From: Pyrodictiaceae archaeon
Lineage (GTDB): Archaea; Thermoproteota; Thermoprotei_A; Sulfolobales; WANQ01
DNA length: 64,000 nucleotides
Direction: 5' to 3'
Assembly: GCA_015521735.1 (NCBI GenBank)
Contig: WANQ01000041.1
Coordinates: forward strand, 17,347 to 81,346
The notes below the pieces were generated by a model that did no database searches, was not told the origin of the DNA, and was given only the letters and a program-made list of their open reading frames with translations. A program made the translations under genes and the position numbers. Shown one piece after another: positions 2,957 through 48,669 of the stretch. The stretch's first letter is position 1; each line of letters opens with the position of its first letter.

Positions 2957-4591
2957 CTAGGCTGGTTTTACCTTAAGTTCCTCTAAGTCTACTAGTAGTC
3001 TTAGTGGTCCTCTACTACTATGTATTAATGCTTCAGCGTACCTAGCGTTTCGGTTCTTTATTCCAAGTATATTGTAGTTTCTTATGCCATTGTATTTTAG
3101 CGTGTATTCTACTAGGTTCTCTATTATCCTTTGATCATAGCTGTATCCTGTAACTCTAATTGACCCGTCTATTAGTGCGTGTATGTCTATGGTTACTGCT
3201 CCTATAATCCATGTTAGTATTAGTCCACCGTTATCGTCTTCTTCTATTGTTTTTAGCCTTGGCTTACTGAATCCTAGTTTTGCTAGTAGTTTAAGGGATT
3301 TTTCTAGAGCGTATCTTCTAGATAGTTCTATTCTTCTAAGCTGTACTATGAGTGGGTGGTCTACTAGGTAGACGTAGTTTCTTACACCATCTGTTGCTGC
3401 TGCTATGTAGCTTGACCCTGCTTTACGTATGCTCGTGACCTTTAAGCCATGGTCTTCTAGTATTTTCTTTACAGCTTCTTCTCCTACGTCTATGTCTAGT
3501 GATAGTACTTTGTTGTCTTCGACGCCTACCAGTGCTTTGACCTTTACTCCTATTCCTTCTAGTTCTACTAGTAGGTGTAGTGGTTTCTCTGATTCAATAC
3601 TCCATTTAGCTAGCTTTAACTCTACTCCTTTAAGTCCCTTCTTTTCTGCTTCCTCCTTAACCTTTTCTACTACCTCGTTTAATCCCCTGTACTTCTCGAT
3701 GGATATGACTCCTTCAGCTCCAACTATTACTTTGTATAGCTTAGTTGTAGTAGAAGCTACTATGTGTAGTGTTTCGCCCTTATTTTCTTCTCTTAGTATT
3801 ATGAGTGATTCTATTGGTGAGCCTAGGGTGTTTGATAGTAGTTCTTCTAGGCTACTAGTCTTTATTCTACGTCTTATGATGTCGGTCTTGCCTGTGTACT
3901 TGTTTATTTTTAGGGCTATGTCGTAGTACTTTGACTCTACTATTACGTGGTAGTGTTTCTCTTTGCCTATGATGTGTATTTTGTATTCTTCTTTACTAGT
4001 GTCTTCTCCTCCTATGAGTTCGTCTATTACTTGGTCTACTGTTCTTTCTACTACTTTTCTGCCACCTAGTTTTTCCTCAAACCATTGGTCTAGTTTTCTA
4101 GCAGTATTTACTGCTATTTCTTCTACTTCCTCTTTGCTTAGTGGCTCTATTTTCTTGGTTATAGTGTCTTCCCATTCATCTATTTCTACTAGTCCATTCC
4201 TATCGTTTAGTGTTAATGCTATACGCCATCTAAGTACTACTAGTACTGCTAGTTTTGATTCACTGTATTCTTTGGTTGGGTTTAAGAATATGTTTATGCT
4301 ACCTAGTTTTAGGGATATACTTGACTGTTCTCCAGGCATTATGAGTTTGCCTTGGTGTTTGCTTAGCCATTCCTCTCCAAACCATTTCATTAAGGCTATT
4401 TTAGCCTTGTATTCTGGTTTTCTTGTACCCGTCTTCTCTACTTCAACTGGTTCTACTAGTACTTCTATACCCTTAACCATTACCTCTTCTCTAGGTATAC
4501 CTAGTTTTTCGACTACCTTGTATGCTTCTTCTACTGCTTCAATAGGTGTTCTCTTGGAGTATAGGGGTTTAGTGTAAGGGAATGTGATCAA
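2957..4591 (-). CDS. Cytoplasmic 544-aa protein made of ~6-7 tandem helix+beta (PepSY-like) repeats; function unknown
   Basis: No signal peptide or TM. Units of ~55-65 aa recur, each an amphipathic helix ending in x-G-(I/L/F) (EKLGIP, EEKLGG, SNTLGSP, AEKKGLKG, LEDHGLK, LAKLGFSK, LKYNGIRN) followed by short strand-like segments. Starts 6 nt after the upstream ATPase gene. Confidence 0.6.
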   Translation of the reverse strand: MITFPYTKPLYSKRTPIEAVEEAYKVVEKLGIPREEVMVKGIEVLVEPVEVEKTGTRKPEYKAKIALMKWFGEEWLSKHQGKLIMPGEQSSISLKLGSINIFLNPTKEYSESKLAVLVVLRWRIALTLNDRNGLVEIDEWEDTITKKIEPLSKEEVEEIAVNTARKLDQWFEEKLGGRKVVERTVDQVIDELIGGEDTSKEEYKIHIIGKEKHYHVIVESKYYDIALKINKYTGKTDIIRRRIKTSSLEELLSNTLGSPIESLIILREENKGETLHIVASTTTKLYKVIVGAEGVISIEKYRGLNEVVEKVKEEAEKKGLKGVELKLAKWSIESEKPLHLLVELEGIGVKVKALVGVEDNKVLSLDIDVGEEAVKKILEDHGLKVTSIRKAGSSYIAAATDGVRNYVYLVDHPLIVQLRRIELSRRYALEKSLKLLAKLGFSKPRLKTIEEDDNGGLILTWIIGAVTIDIHALIDGSIRVTGYSYDQRIIENLVEYTLKYNGIRNYNILGIKNRNARYAEALIHSSRGPLRLLVDLEELKVKPA

Positions 4592-4597
4592 GGCTTG

Positions 4598-6037
4598 CTA
4601 TCCCCATCTAATCTTGTATTCAAGGATAGGAGTAGGGTATTCTGATGGGAGGAGTGTGTGGAGTAGGTGTTTGGTGTAGGAGCGTGTTTTTACTGCTAGG
4701 TCTACTATTTCTTTGAATAGGTGTTTGTCTAGTTCACCGTGAGGTGCTATTATCTTGATCATTCCGGATACTATGCGTGCTATTGCTTTTTCATCTCTAA
4801 TCGTGAACCCTTTACCTAGTTCTACGTAGTCTAATACCATTCTCCTATAATCTATTCTACGTAGCTGGTGTAGTACTTCAGCGTAGAAGTCTATTACTAG
4901 TCCAGGCTTGTTTGATAAGTGTATGTTGCTGACCATGATTTTTGGTAGACTCCATCCTGGTATGAATCCGTGGATACGGTCAAGGAATGCTGAATCCTTC
5001 ATGAAGCTTGGCAGTGACTTGAGGAGTACTTCTACTTGGTCTACCTTATTGTCTGAGTCAATGTTGCCTATGAATACTAGACTGCAATCGCTATGTGCTT
5101 GCTTAGGCCCTCTCTCAAAGAATCCACTCTCCATGTAGTCTTTGAGTTTTCCTACTACTTCTTCTCCTCCAGTAAACTTTATTCTAGCTACTTCATCAAA
5201 TACTACTACGTCTTTAACTGCTATAAGGCCTGGTTGCTTGGTTATTATGTTGTAGAATAATTGTGCTGGTGTAATTCTACCACCACTTATAATCCTTGAG
5301 TAATAGCTTATGTTTCGGTAAAGGAATGTCTTACCTGTTGCACGTGGACCAAATTCTGCTAAATTAACATTTGGTTCAGCGAAGGGTACAAGTCTTAGGA
5401 GAAGTACTAGTTTTTGCTTCCAACTATATGCTTCTGGGTTTAAGCCTATAGTACTAACTACTACGTCAACCCATTCCCTAGGAGTAAACTTACGGGTAGC
5501 GTCGATGAACCAGTCAAGGTCTACTCTTGATACTTGGAAGGGGGTAAAGCCTACCACTACTACCTTCTCATCTGTCTCAGGCTTGTATGCTAGTTCTACT
5601 ACACCCCACATACCAGTTCTAAGTAGGTTTTCATGCTCTGATACTATTTCATCGAGTATACCAGCACTAGTTAAGCCCAAGCTAGGAATAGAAGCTTTAA
5701 GTAAGCCTCTCTTTACATCAACTGTTACCTTCAACTCATCTATGATCTTGATACTACCTTTAACCATTAACTCGTGTAAGTACTTATCACGTGATGATGG
5801 ATCAGGATAATACTTTCTAACAAACTCTACTAGGCGACGGCAATCATTTCTTCTACAAAGCTTTGATACAAGGTACTCAGAAACAAATCTAGGCAATCTA
5901 GAAACATACTGGTTATGTACAAGGCTTTTATCAACAACTAACCCCTTAAACACACTGGAAAGTCTATTCCACAAGCTACTACTACCTACTCTCTCCCCAA
6001 CCATGCTAGTAGCAGCAGTAGTTGATAGTATAGACAT
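4598..6037 (-). CDS. BrxL-like AAA+ ATPase (BrxL N-terminal + ATPase domains, no Lon-protease domain; TIGR02688-type)
   Basis: N-terminal pattern FKGLVVDKSL...LPRFVSEYLVSKL...GSIKIIDEL. Atypical P-loop FGPRATGKT (GP[RK][GS]TGK[ST] type) and Walker B VVVFDEV. At 479 aa it is about 200 aa shorter than BREX BrxL. Confidence 0.7.
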   Translation of the reverse strand: MSILSTTAATSMVGERVGSSSLWNRLSSVFKGLVVDKSLVHNQYVSRLPRFVSEYLVSKLCRRNDCRRLVEFVRKYYPDPSSRDKYLHELMVKGSIKIIDELKVTVDVKRGLLKASIPSLGLTSAGILDEIVSEHENLLRTGMWGVVELAYKPETDEKVVVVGFTPFQVSRVDLDWFIDATRKFTPREWVDVVVSTIGLNPEAYSWKQKLVLLLRLVPFAEPNVNLAEFGPRATGKTFLYRNISYYSRIISGGRITPAQLFYNIITKQPGLIAVKDVVVFDEVARIKFTGGEEVVGKLKDYMESGFFERGPKQAHSDCSLVFIGNIDSDNKVDQVEVLLKSLPSFMKDSAFLDRIHGFIPGWSLPKIMVSNIHLSNKPGLVIDFYAEVLHQLRRIDYRRMVLDYVELGKGFTIRDEKAIARIVSGMIKIIAPHGELDKHLFKEIVDLAVKTRSYTKHLLHTLLPSEYPTPILEYKIRWG

Positions 6038-6256
6038 AACCAGCCTAGCCCTCAGCTAGGAACAAAGCTATGAGCCTTGAAGAGTATAAAAGAAGACCTC
6101 CACATATACTAGTAAAAGCCTACAACAAAGTTAAGAGAGAATAATACCAGGATAACACCATGCAGAAACCACAAGAGGATTTCCAGCAATACTGTTATTA
6201 TTCATTAAGGGAAATTCTTATGAAGCTCGATAACCTAGAGTAAACTCTGAGGAAGA

Positions 6257-6320
6257 GGCCGCGGAGTGGCCCCCACGGTGAAGGAGGGATGAGCCGTGGG
6301 TTATTTGCCGTGACGCGGCC
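6257..6320 (+). repeat. GC-rich two-tier hairpin element, family copy A (possible structured ncRNA)
   Basis: Outer stem GGCCGCG 6257-6263 / CGCGGCC 6314-6320. Inner stem CCCACGG 6272-6278 / CCGTGGG 6294-6300 closes the loop TGAAGGAGGGATGAG. Shares GGAG-N-GCCCCAC and GGATGAG with copy D, and 7-8-mers with copy B. Confidence 0.4.
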
Positions 6321-6795
6321 TTTTCTCTGCTTCCTTCTCTATAGCTTCTAGTTCAACTACTAGTTTCCTTGGATTATTCTTCTTAATTATTCTCACGTAG
6401 TTTGCTAGGTTATCTGCTAGTAGTACTAGGTATTCCATGTACTTCGGCTTTCCTGAACCCTCACGTATTTTATTATGATGTACTATTTTATCGTATAACT
6501 TGTCGTCTACTATGATTAGTGCTGGGTTCAAGGAGTTTAAGTAGTCTAATAACTCGTCTACGTTATCGAATACTTTTACTACCTCTACTAGGCTTTTTAT
6601 TCTATTCTGGTATCGTTTAATGAATGTCCTCATGTACTGCTTCTTTCTATCAGAACCTATTCTGCGGAAATGTTTAAGCATACTACATGTCCTAGTGAAC
6701 CTTCTACTCTTTAATACATCTTCCCTAGCTCCTACGAGTACTATAATGTATGCTCCATTAACGCTAACATCTACTGCTACAATGAGGTCTCCCAA
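6301..6795 (-). CDS. Hypothetical protein (164 aa)
   Basis: Intact ORF 10 nt downstream of the molybdopterin oxidoreductase gene. Strand-like LIVAVDVS and ALIIVDD segments, but no family recognised. The last codons (RPRHGK*) are encoded inside GC-rich element A. Confidence 0.45.
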   Translation of the reverse strand: MGDLIVAVDVSVNGAYIIVLVGAREDVLKSRRFTRTCSMLKHFRRIGSDRKKQYMRTFIKRYQNRIKSLVEVVKVFDNVDELLDYLNSLNPALIIVDDKLYDKIVHHNKIREGSGKPKYMEYLVLLADNLANYVRIIKKNNPRKLVVELEAIEKEAEKRPRHGK

Positions 6796-22943: not shown

Positions 22944-22981
22944 ACTTAAAACTAGCGCTAAGAAAAACTAATTGGTGGAGA

Positions 22982-23034
22982 GCCCCACAACACCGGGTTC
23001 AATTCCCGGGGGAATCTAACTGGATGAGTGGGGC
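22982..23034 (+). repeat. GC-rich element, family copy D, containing a tRNA T-arm look-alike (not a complete tRNA gene)
   Basis: CCGGG-TTCAATT-CCCGG at 22993-23009 is enclosed by GCCCCAC 22982-22988 / GTGGGGC 23028-23034, with GGATGAG at 23022-23028. No acceptor, D or anticodon arms are found in the flanks. Aligns with the reverse complement of 47843-47915. Confidence 0.45.
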
Positions 23035-23828
23035 TGGGACGTATTCACCGCTCTCATCTTCTTAGACGTAATCCTAATTGTCTCCCAGTAGTCAAGCAAT
23101 ATCACGTACTTTCTACTCAAATCAACTAGTACTCTATCTACATCACCGTAAACTACTACTCCTTCATCAATAATTGTCTTCAGTAATCCCGGTGTAGCCT
23201 CATCTACGTCCACCAAGTCTATCTTATCTTCATCTATGCCAATACTGCTAGCTAGCTCAACAACAAGTCTACCAAGCTCAAGAGCACTACTAGGCTTCTC
23301 TGCAAACTTTACTGCTAAGTCAACATCTCTACCACAACCATTACGTGCAAGTGAGCCAAACACTATAGCATACTCAACATTAAACTTCCTCAGCACAGCT
23401 CTCAACCTATCTATTATATCGCTTAGGCAAGGATCCCTACCTACATGTTCATCAAGTAATTCCAGTACATGTGGTAGCTTATCCATTATTTCCTTGAAGG
23501 CTTTAACCTCTAATTCTCTATCAATTCTAGCATAGCCGTGAACTAGTAGGTTCCTAAAACCTGCAAGGCCTTCAAGGAAAACCTTATAGTCATTACCTAG
23601 TCCTAGCCTACTAGCAAGATACCCCATTAATTCGCGGTAACTTGAAGGCTTGCTTCCTCTCTCACGAGAAGCCATCATGGCAGCTAGGTCTATGAGTGAC
23701 TGTGCAACTAGTTCACATAAGCGTTCAACAGCATATATGCTTTCCCTACCACTAGTAAAGTCTTTGTATATCCTAGTGAACTCGTTGAAAAACCACTTAG
23801 TACGCTCTAGTTGTTCTCTCAACATCAA
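23016..23828 (-). CDS. Single-chain HEPN (DUF86) - MNT nucleotidyltransferase fusion protein
   Basis: N-terminal half has the HEPN Rx4H motif (FRNLLVHGY). The C-terminal half has the minimal nucleotidyltransferase motif FGSLARNGCGRDVDLAV (GS...DxD). The last 8 codons lie in GC-rich element D. Confidence 0.8.
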   Translation of the reverse strand: MMLREQLERTKWFFNEFTRIYKDFTSGRESIYAVERLCELVAQSLIDLAAMMASRERGSKPSSYRELMGYLASRLGLGNDYKVFLEGLAGFRNLLVHGYARIDRELEVKAFKEIMDKLPHVLELLDEHVGRDPCLSDIIDRLRAVLRKFNVEYAIVFGSLARNGCGRDVDLAVKFAEKPSSALELGRLVVELASSIGIDEDKIDLVDVDEATPGLLKTIIDEGVVVYGDVDRVLVDLSRKYVILLDYWETIRITSKKMRAVNTSQPHSSS

Positions 23829-35397: not shown

Positions 35398-35470
35398 CTG
35401 AGCCGTATCTTTGAGTCGGCTGGCTGCGGCCTTCCCCATAACCCTTTATTGTCGGTGGCCGTGAGTTTTC
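35398..35470 (+). repeat. GC-rich intergenic element, family copy B (weaker structure)
   Basis: Lies between convergent gene ends. Shares TGAGCCGT (35399-35406), GCGGCCTT (35426-35433) and GCCGTGA (35458-35464) with copy A. Short stems AGCCG/CGGCT and CGGCC/GGCCG. Confidence 0.3.
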
Positions 35471-47096: not shown

Positions 47097-47768
47097 TTGA
47101 AATGGGAGGTAGAGTTTAAGCCAAGTTATAGTATCCTTAAAGTATACTTGGAGCCAGGTGAAAGTGTTACAGCTGAACCCGGAGCAATGGTCTTATACAA
47201 GGGTAATATAGACATTAAGACTCATACTGGTGGAGGATTACTTAAAGGACTCACTAGGGCACTTCTTGGAGGAGAAAGCGTCTTCCTAAACACGTTTACA
47301 GCGAGGAGTGGTGGAGGAGGAGAAGTATGGTTTGCACCAAGTCTTCCAGGAGATATAGCATACTATGAGCTTAAAGGAGAAGAACTAATAGTACAGGATA
47401 CAAGCTACTTAGCCCATCACGGAGATGTAGATATAGGTGTAGCTTGGAGAGGTTTCCGTGGACTACTAGCTGAAGGAGAACTATTCTGGCTTAAGGTTAA
47501 AGGATATGGTGGTGTATGGCTTAGTAGCTATGGAGGTATAAGCCGAGTAGACCTGGGCCCCGGTGAATCAATGATACTAGACAACTTCCACTTCGTAGCA
47601 ATGACTAGTGGAATGAGCTGGCGTGTTAGAAAATTTGGAGGAATAAAGAGCTTCCTATTTGGCGGAGAAGGCATAGTAATAGAGGTAACAGGTCCTGGAA
47701 CAGTATACGTACAGTCTAGATCGCTACCACCATTCGTTGAATTCATAAGGAAATTCCTTAGAAAATAG
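47097..47768 (+). CDS. AIM24/DUF124 (TIGR00266) family protein
   Basis: KPSYSILKVYLEPGESVTAEPGAMV, LLGGESVFLNTF, GELFWLKVKG, GEGIVIEVTGPGTVYVQS follow the family pattern. Confidence 0.8.
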   Translation: MKWEVEFKPSYSILKVYLEPGESVTAEPGAMVLYKGNIDIKTHTGGGLLKGLTRALLGGESVFLNTFTARSGGGGEVWFAPSLPGDIAYYELKGEELIVQDTSYLAHHGDVDIGVAWRGFRGLLAEGELFWLKVKGYGGVWLSSYGGISRVDLGPGESMILDNFHFVAMTSGMSWRVRKFGGIKSFLFGGEGIVIEVTGPGTVYVQSRSLPPFVEFIRKFLRK

Positions 47769-47842
47769 CCGGAATAATCAACTAATAAGAAGCTTCCCCA
47801 GTAATTCTTTTTCCATCAAAACTAACTGAAGAATAGATTGTA

Positions 47843-47915
47843 GGGGGTGTATCCCCACCCCAGCTCATCCTTCCCCCCTTTAAGGGGTGTTGCTGGGGCT
47901 GACCCCCGGCTCATG
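47843..47915 (-). repeat. GC-rich structured element, family copy C (inverted relative to copy D)
   Basis: CCCCAGC 47858-47864 / GCTGGGG 47892-47898 encloses CCCCTT-T-AAGGGG. An alternative hairpin is GGGGTG 47844-47849 / CACCCC 47856-47861. The reverse complement reads AGCCCCAGCAACACC...GGGGGGAAGGATGAGCTGGGGTGGGG, collinear with copy D. Confidence 0.45.
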
Positions 47916-48045: not shown

Positions 48046-48669
48046 TTGACATATAGTATAGTTGCTGTTGATGTTGAGAGTAAGCTTATTGGTATAGGTG
48101 TTGTGAGTGGAAGCATAGCTGTTGGTTCGAGGGTTCCCTGGGCTAGAGCTAGTGTTGGAGGAGTTGTTACTCAGGCTTATACAAATCCTCTACTAGGTAA
48201 GTGGATACTAGAGTACTTGAGTAAGGGTTTGTCTCCTAGGCAAGCCTTAGATAAAGCACTTAGTAGAGATGAAGCACCTTCTATGAGGCAGGTTGGTGTT
48301 GTATCTATTAGTGGTGAGGTAGCAGTGTTTACTGGGAACAATGTTCCTAGACACTATGGAGAATACGTGGGCCATGGATATGTATGTGTAGGTAACATGC
48401 TTGTATCTAGGAAGGTTGTATTAGAAGTATGTAGGCATTTTGAGGATTCTACTGGTAGCTTATCTGAGAGGATAATTAATGCACTAGAAGCTGGCCACGA
48501 AGTTGGAGGTGATGTTAGAGGTGATAGAAGTGCATCACTACTTGTTGTGGGCGAACACCCTGTATACGGGTATAGCTATGATAGGATAATTGATCTTAGA
48601 GTAGACTACTCGAGTAACCCTATTAGGGATTTAAGAAACCTCTATGAAATGTGGATGAGGATTAGGTAG
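48046..48669 (+). CDS. DUF1028-family (Ntn-hydrolase-fold) protein
   Basis: (M)TYSIVAVD N-terminus with Thr2, and GVVSGSIAVGSRVPWARASVGGVVTQAYTNP matching the DUF1028 pattern. TTG start. Confidence 0.75.
   Translation: MTYSIVAVDVESKLIGIGVVSGSIAVGSRVPWARASVGGVVTQAYTNPLLGKWILEYLSKGLSPRQALDKALSRDEAPSMRQVGVVSISGEVAVFTGNNVPRHYGEYVGHGYVCVGNMLVSRKVVLEVCRHFEDSTGSLSERIINALEAGHEVGGDVRGDRSASLLVVGEHPVYGYSYDRIIDLRVDYSSNPIRDLRNLYEMWMRIR

What the first reader, a model, noticed from the sequence alone, without database searches (positions are those of the whole stretch)
6257..6320. GC-rich two-tier hairpin straddling a stop codon, just upstream of the BrxL-like operon (element family copy A)
Seen: against an AT-rich background, nt 6257-6320 is strongly GC-rich and can fold in two tiers. 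The outer stem is all-GC and 7 bp (GGCCGCG 6257-6263 / CGCGGCC 6314-6320). The inner stem is 7 bp (CCCACGG 6272-6278 / CCGTGGG 6294-6300) and closes the loop TGAAGGAGGGATGAG. An extra GGC 6268-6270 / GCC 6307-6309 pairing is possible in the internal loop. The final codons of ORF 6301-6795 (RPRHGK*) are encoded by the 3' half of the structure. The element shares GGAG-N-G(G)CCCC(C)AC and GGATGAG with 22982-23034, GGATGAGC with the reverse strand of 47843-47915, and TGAGCCGT / GCCGTGA / GCGGCCTT with 35398-35470. Established: in AT-rich hyperthermophiles, local GC peaks are good predictors of structured RNAs. Inference: this is a member of a dispersed structured-RNA or miniature-repeat family. 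The layout (lower stem, internal loop, upper stem, GA-containing apical loop UGA...GAUGA) is H/ACA-like or K-loop-like, but no ACA/ANA box follows the stem on either strand.
Basis: partly seen in the sequence, partly recalled or inferred. Interest (0 to 1): 0.55.

Follow-up and report, generated by a model that had tools for sequence, protein, structure and literature searches.

The report
Small RNA paired with mini-nuclease gene
The GC-rich hairpin is real and belongs to an undescribed family of structured small RNAs found in heat-loving archaea, each encoded tail-to-tail with the gene for a tiny RNase H-like nuclease; the pair looks like a self-contained RNA-protein module, possibly toxin-antitoxin-like.

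Summary
The hairpin at 6257-6320 exists exactly as described. It folds better than shuffled sequence and overlaps the last 20 nt of ORF 6301-6795.

It is not a dispersed repeat. A covariance model built from relatives finds one copy in the 64-kb window.

The element is conserved in more than 40 loci from Desulfurococcales and related MAGs and hydrothermal metagenomes. In these loci it sits -20 to +16 nt from the stop codon of one small uncharacterised protein family, on the opposite strand.
- Two of its three stems covary strongly (95% of cells paired; 11 of 19 pairs change on both sides).
- Wobble pairs (59 vs 3) and folding energy (31 of 32 loci) favour the window + strand.
- A BRE/TATA-like motif lies upstream on that strand.

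The protein models confidently as a minimal RNase HII-like fold with conserved acidic residues.

The gene is never seen without the RNA. The RNA does persist beside about 10 decayed genes, and three orphan copies lie on two mobile-element-like contigs.

Best reading: an independently transcribed structured sRNA dedicated to this nuclease, probably an antitoxin-like controller. The apex is K-loop-like in some subtypes. H/ACA and C/D membership fail. No transcript data exist.

The parts
6257..6320 (+). Core structured RNA element. It has three tiers plus an apical loop: outer stem 6257-6263/6314-6320; tandem G.A 6264-6265/6312-6313; middle helix GUGGC 6266-6270 / GCCGU 6307-6311; inner stem 6272-6278/6294-6300.
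   Evidence: Fold. Covariance model R1 scores 80.4 bits, E 1.6e-13, and this is the only hit in the window. Covariation.
6279..6293 (+). Apical loop UGAAGGAGGGAUGAG (type T1). It is K-loop-like: 5' UGA and 3' GAUGA flank the closing helix. GAUG is invariant across the family.
   Evidence: Alignments A2/A3. The loop sequence is identical in L006 and in many other T1 loci (L016, L022, L024, L025, L028, L035, L037) although their stems differ; L014 has UGAGGGAGGGAUGAG.
6251..6256 (+). 5' extension of the outer stem. GGAAGA pairs with UUUUCU at 6321-6326.
   Evidence: RNAfold scan, 76-nt hairpin 6251-6326, -43.9 kcal/mol.
6321..6328 (+). T-rich tract TTTTCTCT immediately 3' of the hairpin. It is a candidate archaeal termination signal for the sRNA. 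It also forms the 3' strand of the stem extension and is the antisense of the ORF's codons.
   Evidence: Sequence. Only 11 of 41 related loci have a T4+ run within 40 nt, so this is weak.
6209..6222 (+). Putative BRE/TATA for the sRNA: GGGAAATTCTTATG, aligned with the family consensus GAAAGCTTTATAC. The inferred transcription start is near 6240-6244.
   Evidence: Upstream alignment. A strict BRE/TATA pattern occurs in 14 of 41 loci within 110 nt upstream, against 0.023 expected per 110 nt. The window copy is a weak match, so this is inference.
6301..6795 (-). Partner gene: a 164-aa protein of an uncharacterised family with an RNase HII-like fold. Candidate catalytic residues are D9, E25, D97/D98 and D128. 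Its last 20 nt, including the stop codon, lie inside the hairpin.
   Evidence: ORF. Homologs and alignment. AF2 model pLDDT 90.9. Foldseek best matches are archaeal RNase HII, E about 1e-4, TM about 0.5. No Pfam, NCBIfam or PADLOC family.

Best explanation
Nucleotides 6257-6320 on the + strand are the core of a small structured RNA gene. The predicted transcript runs from about 6242 to about 6328, roughly 85 nt. It is transcribed from its own promoter, convergently with the gene for a minimal RNase H-fold nuclease (6301-6795, - strand), and it overlaps that gene's 3' end.

RNA and nuclease form a self-contained two-gene module that moves and duplicates as a unit. The most likely mechanism is that the RNA is the nuclease's dedicated controller, like an antitoxin. 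In this model its conserved features are recognised by the nuclease and hold it inactive. Those features are the tandem G.A with the G.U/U.G helix, and the apical loop with its subtype-specific sequence. The 3' overlap could also allow antisense pairing with the mRNA tail. Mobile elements would carry orphan copies as decoys.

Shown here:
- a conserved, covarying structure;
- the strand on which it folds;
- strict linkage to the gene;
- the RNase H-like fold of the modelled protein;
- the asymmetry in which the gene decays but the RNA persists.

Inferred, not shown: transcription, protein binding, and any toxicity or inhibition.
For: Structure and covariation
- The hairpin is present next to every family member examined: 31 genome or contig loci and 15 metagenome loci.
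- Among the gene-linked copies it lies -20 to +16 nt from the stop codon, on the opposite strand.
- 94.9% of cells are paired and 11 of 19 pairs change on both sides. None of 500 shuffles reaches this, and slid controls give 35-57% pairing. RNAalifold finds the same stems independently.

Strand
- Cells that pair only through wobble number 59 on the window + equivalent strand and 3 on the other strand. Excluding the invariant middle helix the count is 14 against 2.
- The minimum free energy is lower on that strand in 31 of 32 loci.

Own transcription unit
- A conserved motif (A)GAAAGCTTTATAC lies 33-90 nt upstream on the hairpin strand, followed by a conserved GTTACTGGRG.
- In the orphan locus L186, homology to L022 covers about 50 nt upstream plus the hairpin, and stops exactly at the hairpin's 3' end.

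Dedicated partner
- No other neighbouring gene is conserved among 115 ORFs in 27 loci.
- RNA loop types T1-T4 largely follow the protein clades (T1 and T3 cluster cleanly; one T4 locus, L015, groups with the T2 clade).
- The most distant homolog (L012) has a different GC-rich G.A-containing structure in the same place.

Nuclease
- The AF2 model has pLDDT 90.9. The best PDB matches are RNase HII and HIII.
- D97 and D98 are invariant, E25 and D128 nearly so, and D9 is conserved in the sequences that keep the N-terminus (read from alignment A1).

Antitoxin-like asymmetry
- No intact gene lacks the structure.
- About 10 loci have frameshifted, stop-interrupted or truncated genes beside intact hairpins: L014b, L026, L032, L035=L182, L036, L037, L038, L039, L040, L174.
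- Three orphan hairpins that still fold lie on two contigs with mobile-element-like content: L171 and L186, the latter carrying two different subtypes.

Defence context
- Some copies sit in defence contexts. One lies inside a type I-A cas locus (L006). The window copy lies next to a BrxL-like gene.
Against: - There is no transcript evidence of any kind. All sequences come from MAGs or metagenomes.
- The promoter match in the window's own T1 lineage is weak, and only 11 of 41 loci have a T4+ run after the hairpin.
- No known toxin-antitoxin system uses an RNase H-fold toxin with an RNA antitoxin. PADLOC gives no match.
- Most genomic neighbours are housekeeping genes.
- IMG/VR viral contigs hold neither the gene nor the RNA. 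The mobile-element nature of L171 and L186 therefore rests on gene content alone.
- No specific complementarity was found between the RNA and the 5' region of its partner mRNA (a weak test with only 7 loci).
- Persistence of the RNA beside dead genes also fits an RNA that has its own function.
Confidence: 0.42

Rival explanations
1. The RNA is a positive cofactor of the nuclease rather than an inhibitor. It could be a scaffold, a guide or a substrate. The module would then be a minimal ribonucleoprotein nuclease, with the variable leader or stem giving specificity, or the nuclease would mature the RNA.
For: - Linkage between gene and RNA is strict, and they diversify together.
- RNase H-fold nucleases such as PIWI and RuvC of TnpB or Cas12 commonly use RNA partners encoded at the gene's 3' end (established knowledge).
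- The fold search lists EndoV, PIWI and Cas12f at low rank.
- The 5' leaders vary between loci.
Against: - The protein is only about 150 aa with no extra domains, far smaller than any known RNA-guided nuclease.
- The RNA lies on the opposite strand, unlike omega/reRNAs.
- Many genes are dead while their RNA is intact, and three orphan RNAs lie on two mobile-element-like contigs. A cofactor alone does not predict this.
Confidence: 0.2
2. The hairpin acts as DNA. It would be a single-strand DNA hairpin recognised by the RNase H-fold protein acting as a transposase, resolvase or homing-like enzyme. The gene plus hairpin would then be a small selfish element or an integration site.
For: - The module occupies unrelated genomic contexts and duplicates. 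L014 has a second copy and L178 has tandem hairpins. Several MAGs hold 2-3 loci.
- Pseudogenes are frequent, as for selfish elements.
- Homology between L186 and L022 breaks exactly at the hairpin edge.
- Integrase cores appear among weak fold matches.
Against: - Each gene has only one hairpin, with none at the other end.
- No partial repeats or att-like duplicates were found in the window, L022, L171 or L186.
- Conserved tandem G.A, G.U/U.G and K-loop-like features are typical of RNA.
- A promoter-like motif points at the hairpin.
- The best fold matches are RNase HII, not DDE transposases.
Confidence: 0.12
3. The element works on the - strand as the 3' UTR of the nuclease mRNA. It could be a terminator, a stabiliser, or an autoregulatory protein-binding hairpin.
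For: - It begins 0-16 nt after the stop codon in nearly all loci.
- The - strand also folds, at -28.3 kcal/mol with z = -2.7.
Against: - Wobble pairs favour the other strand 59 to 3, and that strand is more stable in 31 of 32 loci.
- The conserved GA/GA and UGA...GAUGA motifs become UC/UC on the - strand.
- No T-run follows the hairpin on the sense strand.
- Orphan copies keep the upstream region of the + strand but have no ORF.
Confidence: 0.08
4. It is an L7Ae-dependent guide or scaffold RNA, H/ACA-like or C/D-like, whose position next to the gene is incidental.
For: - The apex UGA...GAUGA in types T1, T4 and T5 matches the K-loop sequence pattern.
- Type T5 has a K-turn-like base, UUGA / GAUGAGA.
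- In Sulfolobus, L7Ae binds antisense RNAs and sRNAs of unknown function (PMC5539422).
- K-turns with A at position 2n still bind L7Ae (PMC3985660).
Against: - No ACA/ANA box and no RUGAUGA box C were found.
- The would-be guide strands pair with each other and covary.
- No Rfam match was found even at E = 10.
- Loop types T2 and T3 lack the standard G.A pairs.
- Strict linkage to one gene family is not expected of rRNA-modification guides.
Confidence: 0.05

Closest known systems
Type III toxin-antitoxin systems (ToxIN, CptIN, TenpIN) and phage-borne pseudo-antitoxin RNAs
   Same: - A structured RNA is dedicated to one small nuclease gene in a compact, mobile two-part module.
- The RNA gene outlives the protein gene.
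- Orphan RNA copies occur on mobile-element-like DNA.
   Different: - The candidate toxin has an RNase HII-like fold, not ToxN/Kid-like.
- The RNA is a single hairpin encoded downstream on the opposite strand, not tandem repeats upstream on the same strand.
- Toxicity and binding are untested.
Type I toxin-antitoxin pairs with convergent 3' overlap (for example txpA/RatA, bsrG/SR4)
   Same: - A convergent sRNA overlaps or abuts the 3' end of the partner mRNA.
- The sRNA has its own promoter and is highly structured.
   Different: - The partner is a 150-aa soluble nuclease, not a small hydrophobic peptide.
- In most loci the ORF itself is not overlapped.
- Conserved non-Watson-Crick motifs and loop subtypes suggest recognition by a protein rather than simple pairing.
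Archaeal K-loop / K-turn RNAs bound by L7Ae (H/ACA and C/D sRNA apices; l7ae 5' UTR)
   Same: - The GC-rich helix is closed by 5'-UGA ... GAUGA-3', giving potential tandem sheared G.A pairs.
- A second G.A tandem lies about 13 bp below.
   Different: - There is no ACA box and no C/D boxes.
- There are no free guide strands.
- Two of the five loop subtypes lack the consensus G.A pairs.
- L7Ae binding is untested.
RNase HII (type 2 RNase H)
   Same: - It is the best structural match for the partner protein.
- The spacing of acidic residues (D9 ... D97/98 ... D128) is similar to D7 ... D105 ... D135 of Thermococcus RNase HII. The RNase HII residue numbers are recalled from memory and were not checked here.
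   Different: - The protein is about 60 residues shorter.
- There is no sequence similarity, and TM is only about 0.5.
- It lacks the adjacent D-E pair.
- Only 92 clusters exist among 1.84 billion representatives.

Membership tests
H/ACA guide sRNA | An ACA (ANA) box immediately 3' of the lower stem | tested here: not met
   The 3' flanks of about 30 relatives show no conserved ACA/ANA. They carry the reverse complement of the stop codon and the FEK codons.
H/ACA guide sRNA | A pseudouridylation pocket, meaning two unpaired guide strands conserved with the target | tested here: not met
   The candidate pocket strands GUGGC/GCCGU pair with each other. They co-vary to GUGGG/CCCGU, CG:23 and GC:7.
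H/ACA guide sRNA | Match to curated covariance models | tested here: not met
   Rfam gives no match at 6257-6320 even at E <= 10.
Box C/D sRNA | Box C RUGAUGA at the 5' end and box D CUGA at the 3' end, with 12-nt single-stranded guides | tested here: not met
   The 5' side reads GGAGUGG with no RUGAUGA. The 'guides' form a covarying 7-8 bp helix, and the 3' spacer varies by 2-6 nt.
K-loop / K-turn (L7Ae-binding motif) | Tandem sheared G.A pairs next to a helix, with a 3-nt bulge or a closing loop | tested here: inconclusive
   The sequence pattern is met in types T1, T4 and T5 (GG-U-GA ... GAU-GA-N-CC). Type T3 has AA/GC and type T2 has AC/GA. Geometry cannot be tested.
K-loop / K-turn (L7Ae-binding motif) | Binding by L7Ae | not testable with these tools
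   This needs an EMSA or RIP experiment.
Type III toxin-antitoxin | A ToxN/AbiQ-like endoribonuclease toxin preceded by tandem antitoxin RNA repeats | tested here: not met
   The fold is RNase HII-like. The RNA is a single downstream antisense hairpin, and tandem copies occur only in L178. PADLOC finds no match.
Type I toxin-antitoxin | A small hydrophobic toxin peptide whose mRNA is bound by an antisense RNA | tested here: not met
   The partner is a 150-164 aa soluble alpha/beta protein. Antisense overlap with the ORF occurs only in the window and L002 lineage.
   There is one copy in 64 kb with filters off. In 309 kb of related loci, copies occur only beside the gene. The whole genome was not available.
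IS200/IS605-type hairpin ends | An HUH-Y1 transposase with subterminal hairpins at both ends | tested here: not met
   There is no Y1_Tnp or other transposase domain. Only one end has a hairpin, and no repeats were found.

The most novel reading that the evidence does not exclude
This is a previously unrecognised class of archaeal RNA-protein module. A minimal, roughly 150-aa RNase HII-like nuclease would be held in check, or programmed, by its own K-loop-bearing small RNA encoded tail-to-tail. The module would act as a toxin-antitoxin or abortive-infection-type defence. Archaeal viruses or plasmids would counter it by carrying decoy copies of the RNA, and L186 carries two subtypes.
Probability: 0.3. 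Interest if true: 0.8.

Novelty: new variant of a known kind. Interest (0 to 1): 0.64.

Why it matters
- It adds a well-supported structured RNA family to the sparse catalogue of RNAs from Thermoproteota. Covariation comes from more than 30 diverged sequences, and the family is absent from Rfam 15.
- It ties that RNA to an unannotated RNase H-fold protein family.
- If the RNA controls or programmes the nuclease, this would be a new architecture for RNA-protein toxin-antitoxin or defence modules in archaea. It would also be a compact RNA/nuclease pair of possible use as a tool.
The unit is gene-linked, not dispersed, and is unrelated to the neighbouring BrxL-like genes.

Tried and rejected
- **Known RNA families.** Rfam at gathering and at permissive thresholds, and ARAGORN, gave nothing at the site.
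The covariance model with filters off, a word-count test and an alignment all reject sites 22982, 35398 and 47843 as members.
- **Small ORF starting at the invariant loop AUG.** I rejected this by inspecting the sequences. The 3' spacer length varies out of frame, the peptides are not conserved, and an SD-like GGAGG occurs only in type T1.
- **Pairing of the loop or leader with the 5' region of the partner mRNA.** Cognate duplex energy was -32.7 and non-cognate -32.2 kcal/mol, so there is no signal. Only 7 loci were usable.
- **Viral origin.** No relatives of the gene were found in IMG/VR. All loose or loop-pattern hits there fail the covariance model. No viral fold match was found.
- **A conserved neighbouring gene or defence-island rule.** None was found.
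- **att-type partial repeats of the hairpin.** None of 11 nt or longer were found.
- **Distant protein relatives with a known domain.** Only 92 clusters were found, none with a Pfam domain. There was no PDB sequence match.

Full report
**Observation.**

It reads GGCCGCG-GA-GUGGC-C-CCCACGG-UGAAGGAGGGAUGAG-CCGUGGG-UUAUUU-GCCGU-GA-CGCGGCC. It forms a local GC peak.
- As RNA, the + strand folds at -35.0 kcal/mol (z = -3.8; 0 of 200 shuffles as good). The - strand folds at -28.3 kcal/mol.
- The stem can extend to 6251-6326.
- ORF 6301-6795 (-) ends ...EKRPRHGK* with its last 20 nt inside the hairpin.
- Rfam and ARAGORN find nothing here.

**The element is not a dispersed family in this window.**

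I built a covariance model (R1) from 30 relatives. Run over the whole window with filters off, it hits only 6257-6320 (80.4 bits, E 1.6e-13).
- The shared heptamer GGATGAG is not enriched: 8 occurrences against 4.2 +/- 2.2 expected.
- Sites 22975-23045(+) and 47839-47901(-) share a different architecture with each other: GCCCCAS-AACA-hairpin-GGAUGAG-SUGGGGC.
- The second of these gives a sub-threshold match to Rfam RF02803, a Pyrobaculum H/ACA-like sRNA (23.3 bits against a gathering score of 35.6).
- These two sites are therefore probably separate K-turn sRNAs, not copies of the finding.

**What the element is linked to.**

The 164-aa ORF belongs to a small family with no annotation: 21 clusters at 90% identity and 92 representatives among 1.84 billion. 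It has no Pfam, NCBIfam or PADLOC family.

Its homologs end ...FEK. The 10-residue tail that runs into the hairpin exists only in the window's closest relatives.

I fetched homologous loci. Every one has a GC-rich hairpin directly after the stop codon.
- The model finds one hit per locus, always beside the gene and on the opposite strand.
- The distance from stop codon to hairpin is -20 to +16 nt. Only the window and L002 show the 20-nt overlap; L006 and L178 overlap by 1-2 nt.
- A metagenome scan with the window's loop sequence gave 32 places. Fifteen are true members, all from samples that also yield the gene-bearing contigs.
- All named records are MAGs of Desulfurococcales, Pyrodictiaceae, Acidilobaceae or Thermoprotei.

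**Structure and strand.**

On the model-based alignment of 32 distinct sequences, 94.9% of cells pair, against 80.5% after shuffling.
- Eleven of 19 pairs change on both sides, and none of 500 shuffles reaches the observed values. Slid controls give 35-57% pairing.
- RNAalifold recovers the outer and inner stems on its own.
- The middle helix GUGGC/GCCGU is nearly invariant, with G.U and U.G pairs. It has one covarying pair (CG:23, GC:7).
- It is preceded by a conserved GA/GA tandem.

Five loop subtypes exist:

| Type | Loop or distinguishing feature |
|---|---|
| T1 | UGAAGGAGGGAUGAG |
| T2 | UACCRGUUGGGGGAUGAC |
| T3 | UAAGUACCGGAUGCU |
| T4 | UGAGNGRAGAUGAU |
| T5 | T1-like loop with a K-turn-like base, UUGA/GAUGAGA |

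GAUG is invariant across them.

The strand evidence favours the strand equivalent to the window + strand.
- Cells that pair only through wobble number 59 on this strand and 3 on the complement. Outside the invariant helix the count is 14 against 2.
- This strand is the more stable in 31 of 32 loci.
- The functional strand is therefore antisense to the ORF.

**An independent transcription unit (inferred).**

Most loci carry (A)GAAAGCTTTATAC 33-90 nt upstream of the hairpin on that strand. About 25 nt further on lies a conserved GTTACTGGRG.
- A strict BRE/TATA pattern is present in 14 of 41 loci, against 0.023 expected per 110 nt.
- The motif is a near-palindrome whose better TATA half points towards the hairpin.
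- The window has the weaker GGGAAATTCTTATG at 6209-6222. This predicts a start near 6242 and, with the TTTTCTCT at 6321-6328, an RNA of about 85 nt.
- Only 11 of 41 loci have a T4+ run downstream, so the 3' end is uncertain.

**The protein.**

AlphaFold2 gives a confident model (pLDDT 90.9, pTM 0.87).
- Foldseek against the PDB ranks archaeal RNase HII first (E about 1e-4, TM about 0.5). RNase HIII follows, with EndoV, UvrC and integrase cores much lower, at E above 0.05.
- D97 and D98 are invariant. E25 and D128 are nearly so, and D9 is conserved in the sequences that keep the N-terminus (read from the alignment).
- This fits an active DEDD-type RNase H-fold nuclease, but activity is untested.

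**Genetics of the pair.**

No neighbouring gene is conserved among 115 ORFs around 27 loci, so the gene plus the RNA is a self-contained module.
- Loop subtypes largely follow the protein clades.
- Several MAGs hold two or three modules. L014 has a second hairpin after a truncated paralog. L178 has two hairpins in tandem.

I found no gene without the structure. The reverse is common.
- About 10 loci have frameshifted, stop-interrupted or truncated genes beside high-scoring hairpins.
- One such frameshift appears in two independent assemblies (L035 and L182), so it is unlikely to be an assembly error.

Two contigs carry orphan hairpins with intact pairing.
- L171 sits among ORFans, a stand-alone Cas4-like nuclease and ACCGCATG iterons.
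- L186 sits among ORFans, a DUF5131/phrog_2045 protein and an HTH protein. It carries two different subtypes 170 nt apart.
- Homology between L186 and the Staphylothermus-like locus L022 covers the upstream 50 nt plus the hairpin, and ends at the hairpin's 3' edge.

**Interpretation.**

Taken together, the data point to a structured small RNA gene dedicated to an RNase H-fold nuclease. The supporting observations are:
- an RNA that is never missing when the gene is present;
- frequent decay of the gene;
- orphan RNAs on mobile-element-like DNA;
- occasional placement in defence loci, inside a type I-A cas locus in L006 and next to a BrxL-like gene here.

These fit an antitoxin-like controller best. 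I put this at about 0.4. The main rivals are:
- a cofactor or guide role for the RNA;
- a DNA-level hairpin belonging to a selfish element;
- a sense-strand 3' UTR element, which the strand evidence disfavours;
- an L7Ae guide RNA.

H/ACA and C/D membership both fail on defining features. K-loop membership is met at sequence level in three of five subtypes and is otherwise untestable here. L7Ae is known to bind antisense RNAs and sRNAs of unknown function in Sulfolobus (PMC5539422). K-turns with A at position 2n still bind it (PMC3985660).

**Limits.**
- There are no expression data.
- All relatives come from MAGs or metagenomes.
- The E-values of the covariance model are rough.
- The window's whole genome could not be scanned.
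- The mobile-element status of the orphan contigs is inferred from gene content, and IMG/VR holds no members.

Noticed in passing
window 47839-47901 (-): A GC-rich element between ORFs 47097-47768 and 48046-48669. It gives a sub-threshold match to Rfam RF02803, Pyrobaculum sRNA 205, an H/ACA-like family: 23.3 bits against a gathering score of 35.6, with E 1.2 for the whole window and 0.003 for 171 nt. The match includes a terminal ACA. It is probably an H/ACA-like sRNA and is unrelated to the finding.
   Followed up: partly
window 22975-23045 (+): This element shares the K-turn-like module of the 47839 element (GCCCCAC-AACA-hairpin-GGAUGAG-GUGGGGC). Its apical hairpin is a perfect tRNA T-arm look-alike, CCGGGTTCAATTCCCGG. 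It lies between convergent ORFs and overlaps the 3' end of ORF 23016-23828 (-). ARAGORN calls no tRNA, and the only Rfam hit is a weak one to the T-arm of mascRNA.
   Followed up: partly
L171 2760-2950: At least eight copies of ACCGCATG, an iteron-like array, lie just beyond an orphan hairpin. The contig also holds a stand-alone Cas4-like nuclease and ORFans. This looks like the replication-origin region of a plasmid or virus.
   Followed up: no
L186 4364-4427 and 4595-4658 (+): Two orphan hairpins of different subtypes lie 170 nt apart with no nuclease gene nearby. One is the window type and one the L006 type. The 7-kb contig has DUF5131/phrog_2045, an HTH protein and ORFans. Two further stretches of the contig are homologous to L022.
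   Followed up: partly
L011 about 6520-6545, L018 about 3215-3250, L038 about 346-370 (antisense strand): In T3 and T4 loci an extra perfect hairpin, GUAACAACN-GUAA-NGUUGUUAC, lies between the promoter-like motif and the main element. It has a GNRA-like tetraloop and a compensatory C-G to U-A change. The RNA may therefore be longer in those lineages.
   Followed up: no
L012 5216-5330 (and L013): The most distant homolog (38% identity) has a different and larger GC-rich structure in the same antisense position. It has an 11-bp stem with a G.U pair, GAUGAGG/CCGAGGU, and a GGGA tetraloop hairpin. Model R1 does not detect it.
   Followed up: partly
window 2957-6037 (-); L001, L002: A BrxL-like Lon/ATPase of 479 aa (TIGR02688, E 1e-145) is followed by a conserved 544-aa protein with no family. 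No other BREX genes are seen nearby. The pair is syntenic in the relative with 77% identity. It may be a stand-alone two-gene BrxL system.
   Followed up: no
L014 6287-7645 (+) and two other loci: ATPases of the AAA_21/AAA_15 type (AbiEii/OLD-like) lie next to the module in 3 of 27 loci. This is a weak hint of defence-island context.
   Followed up: no
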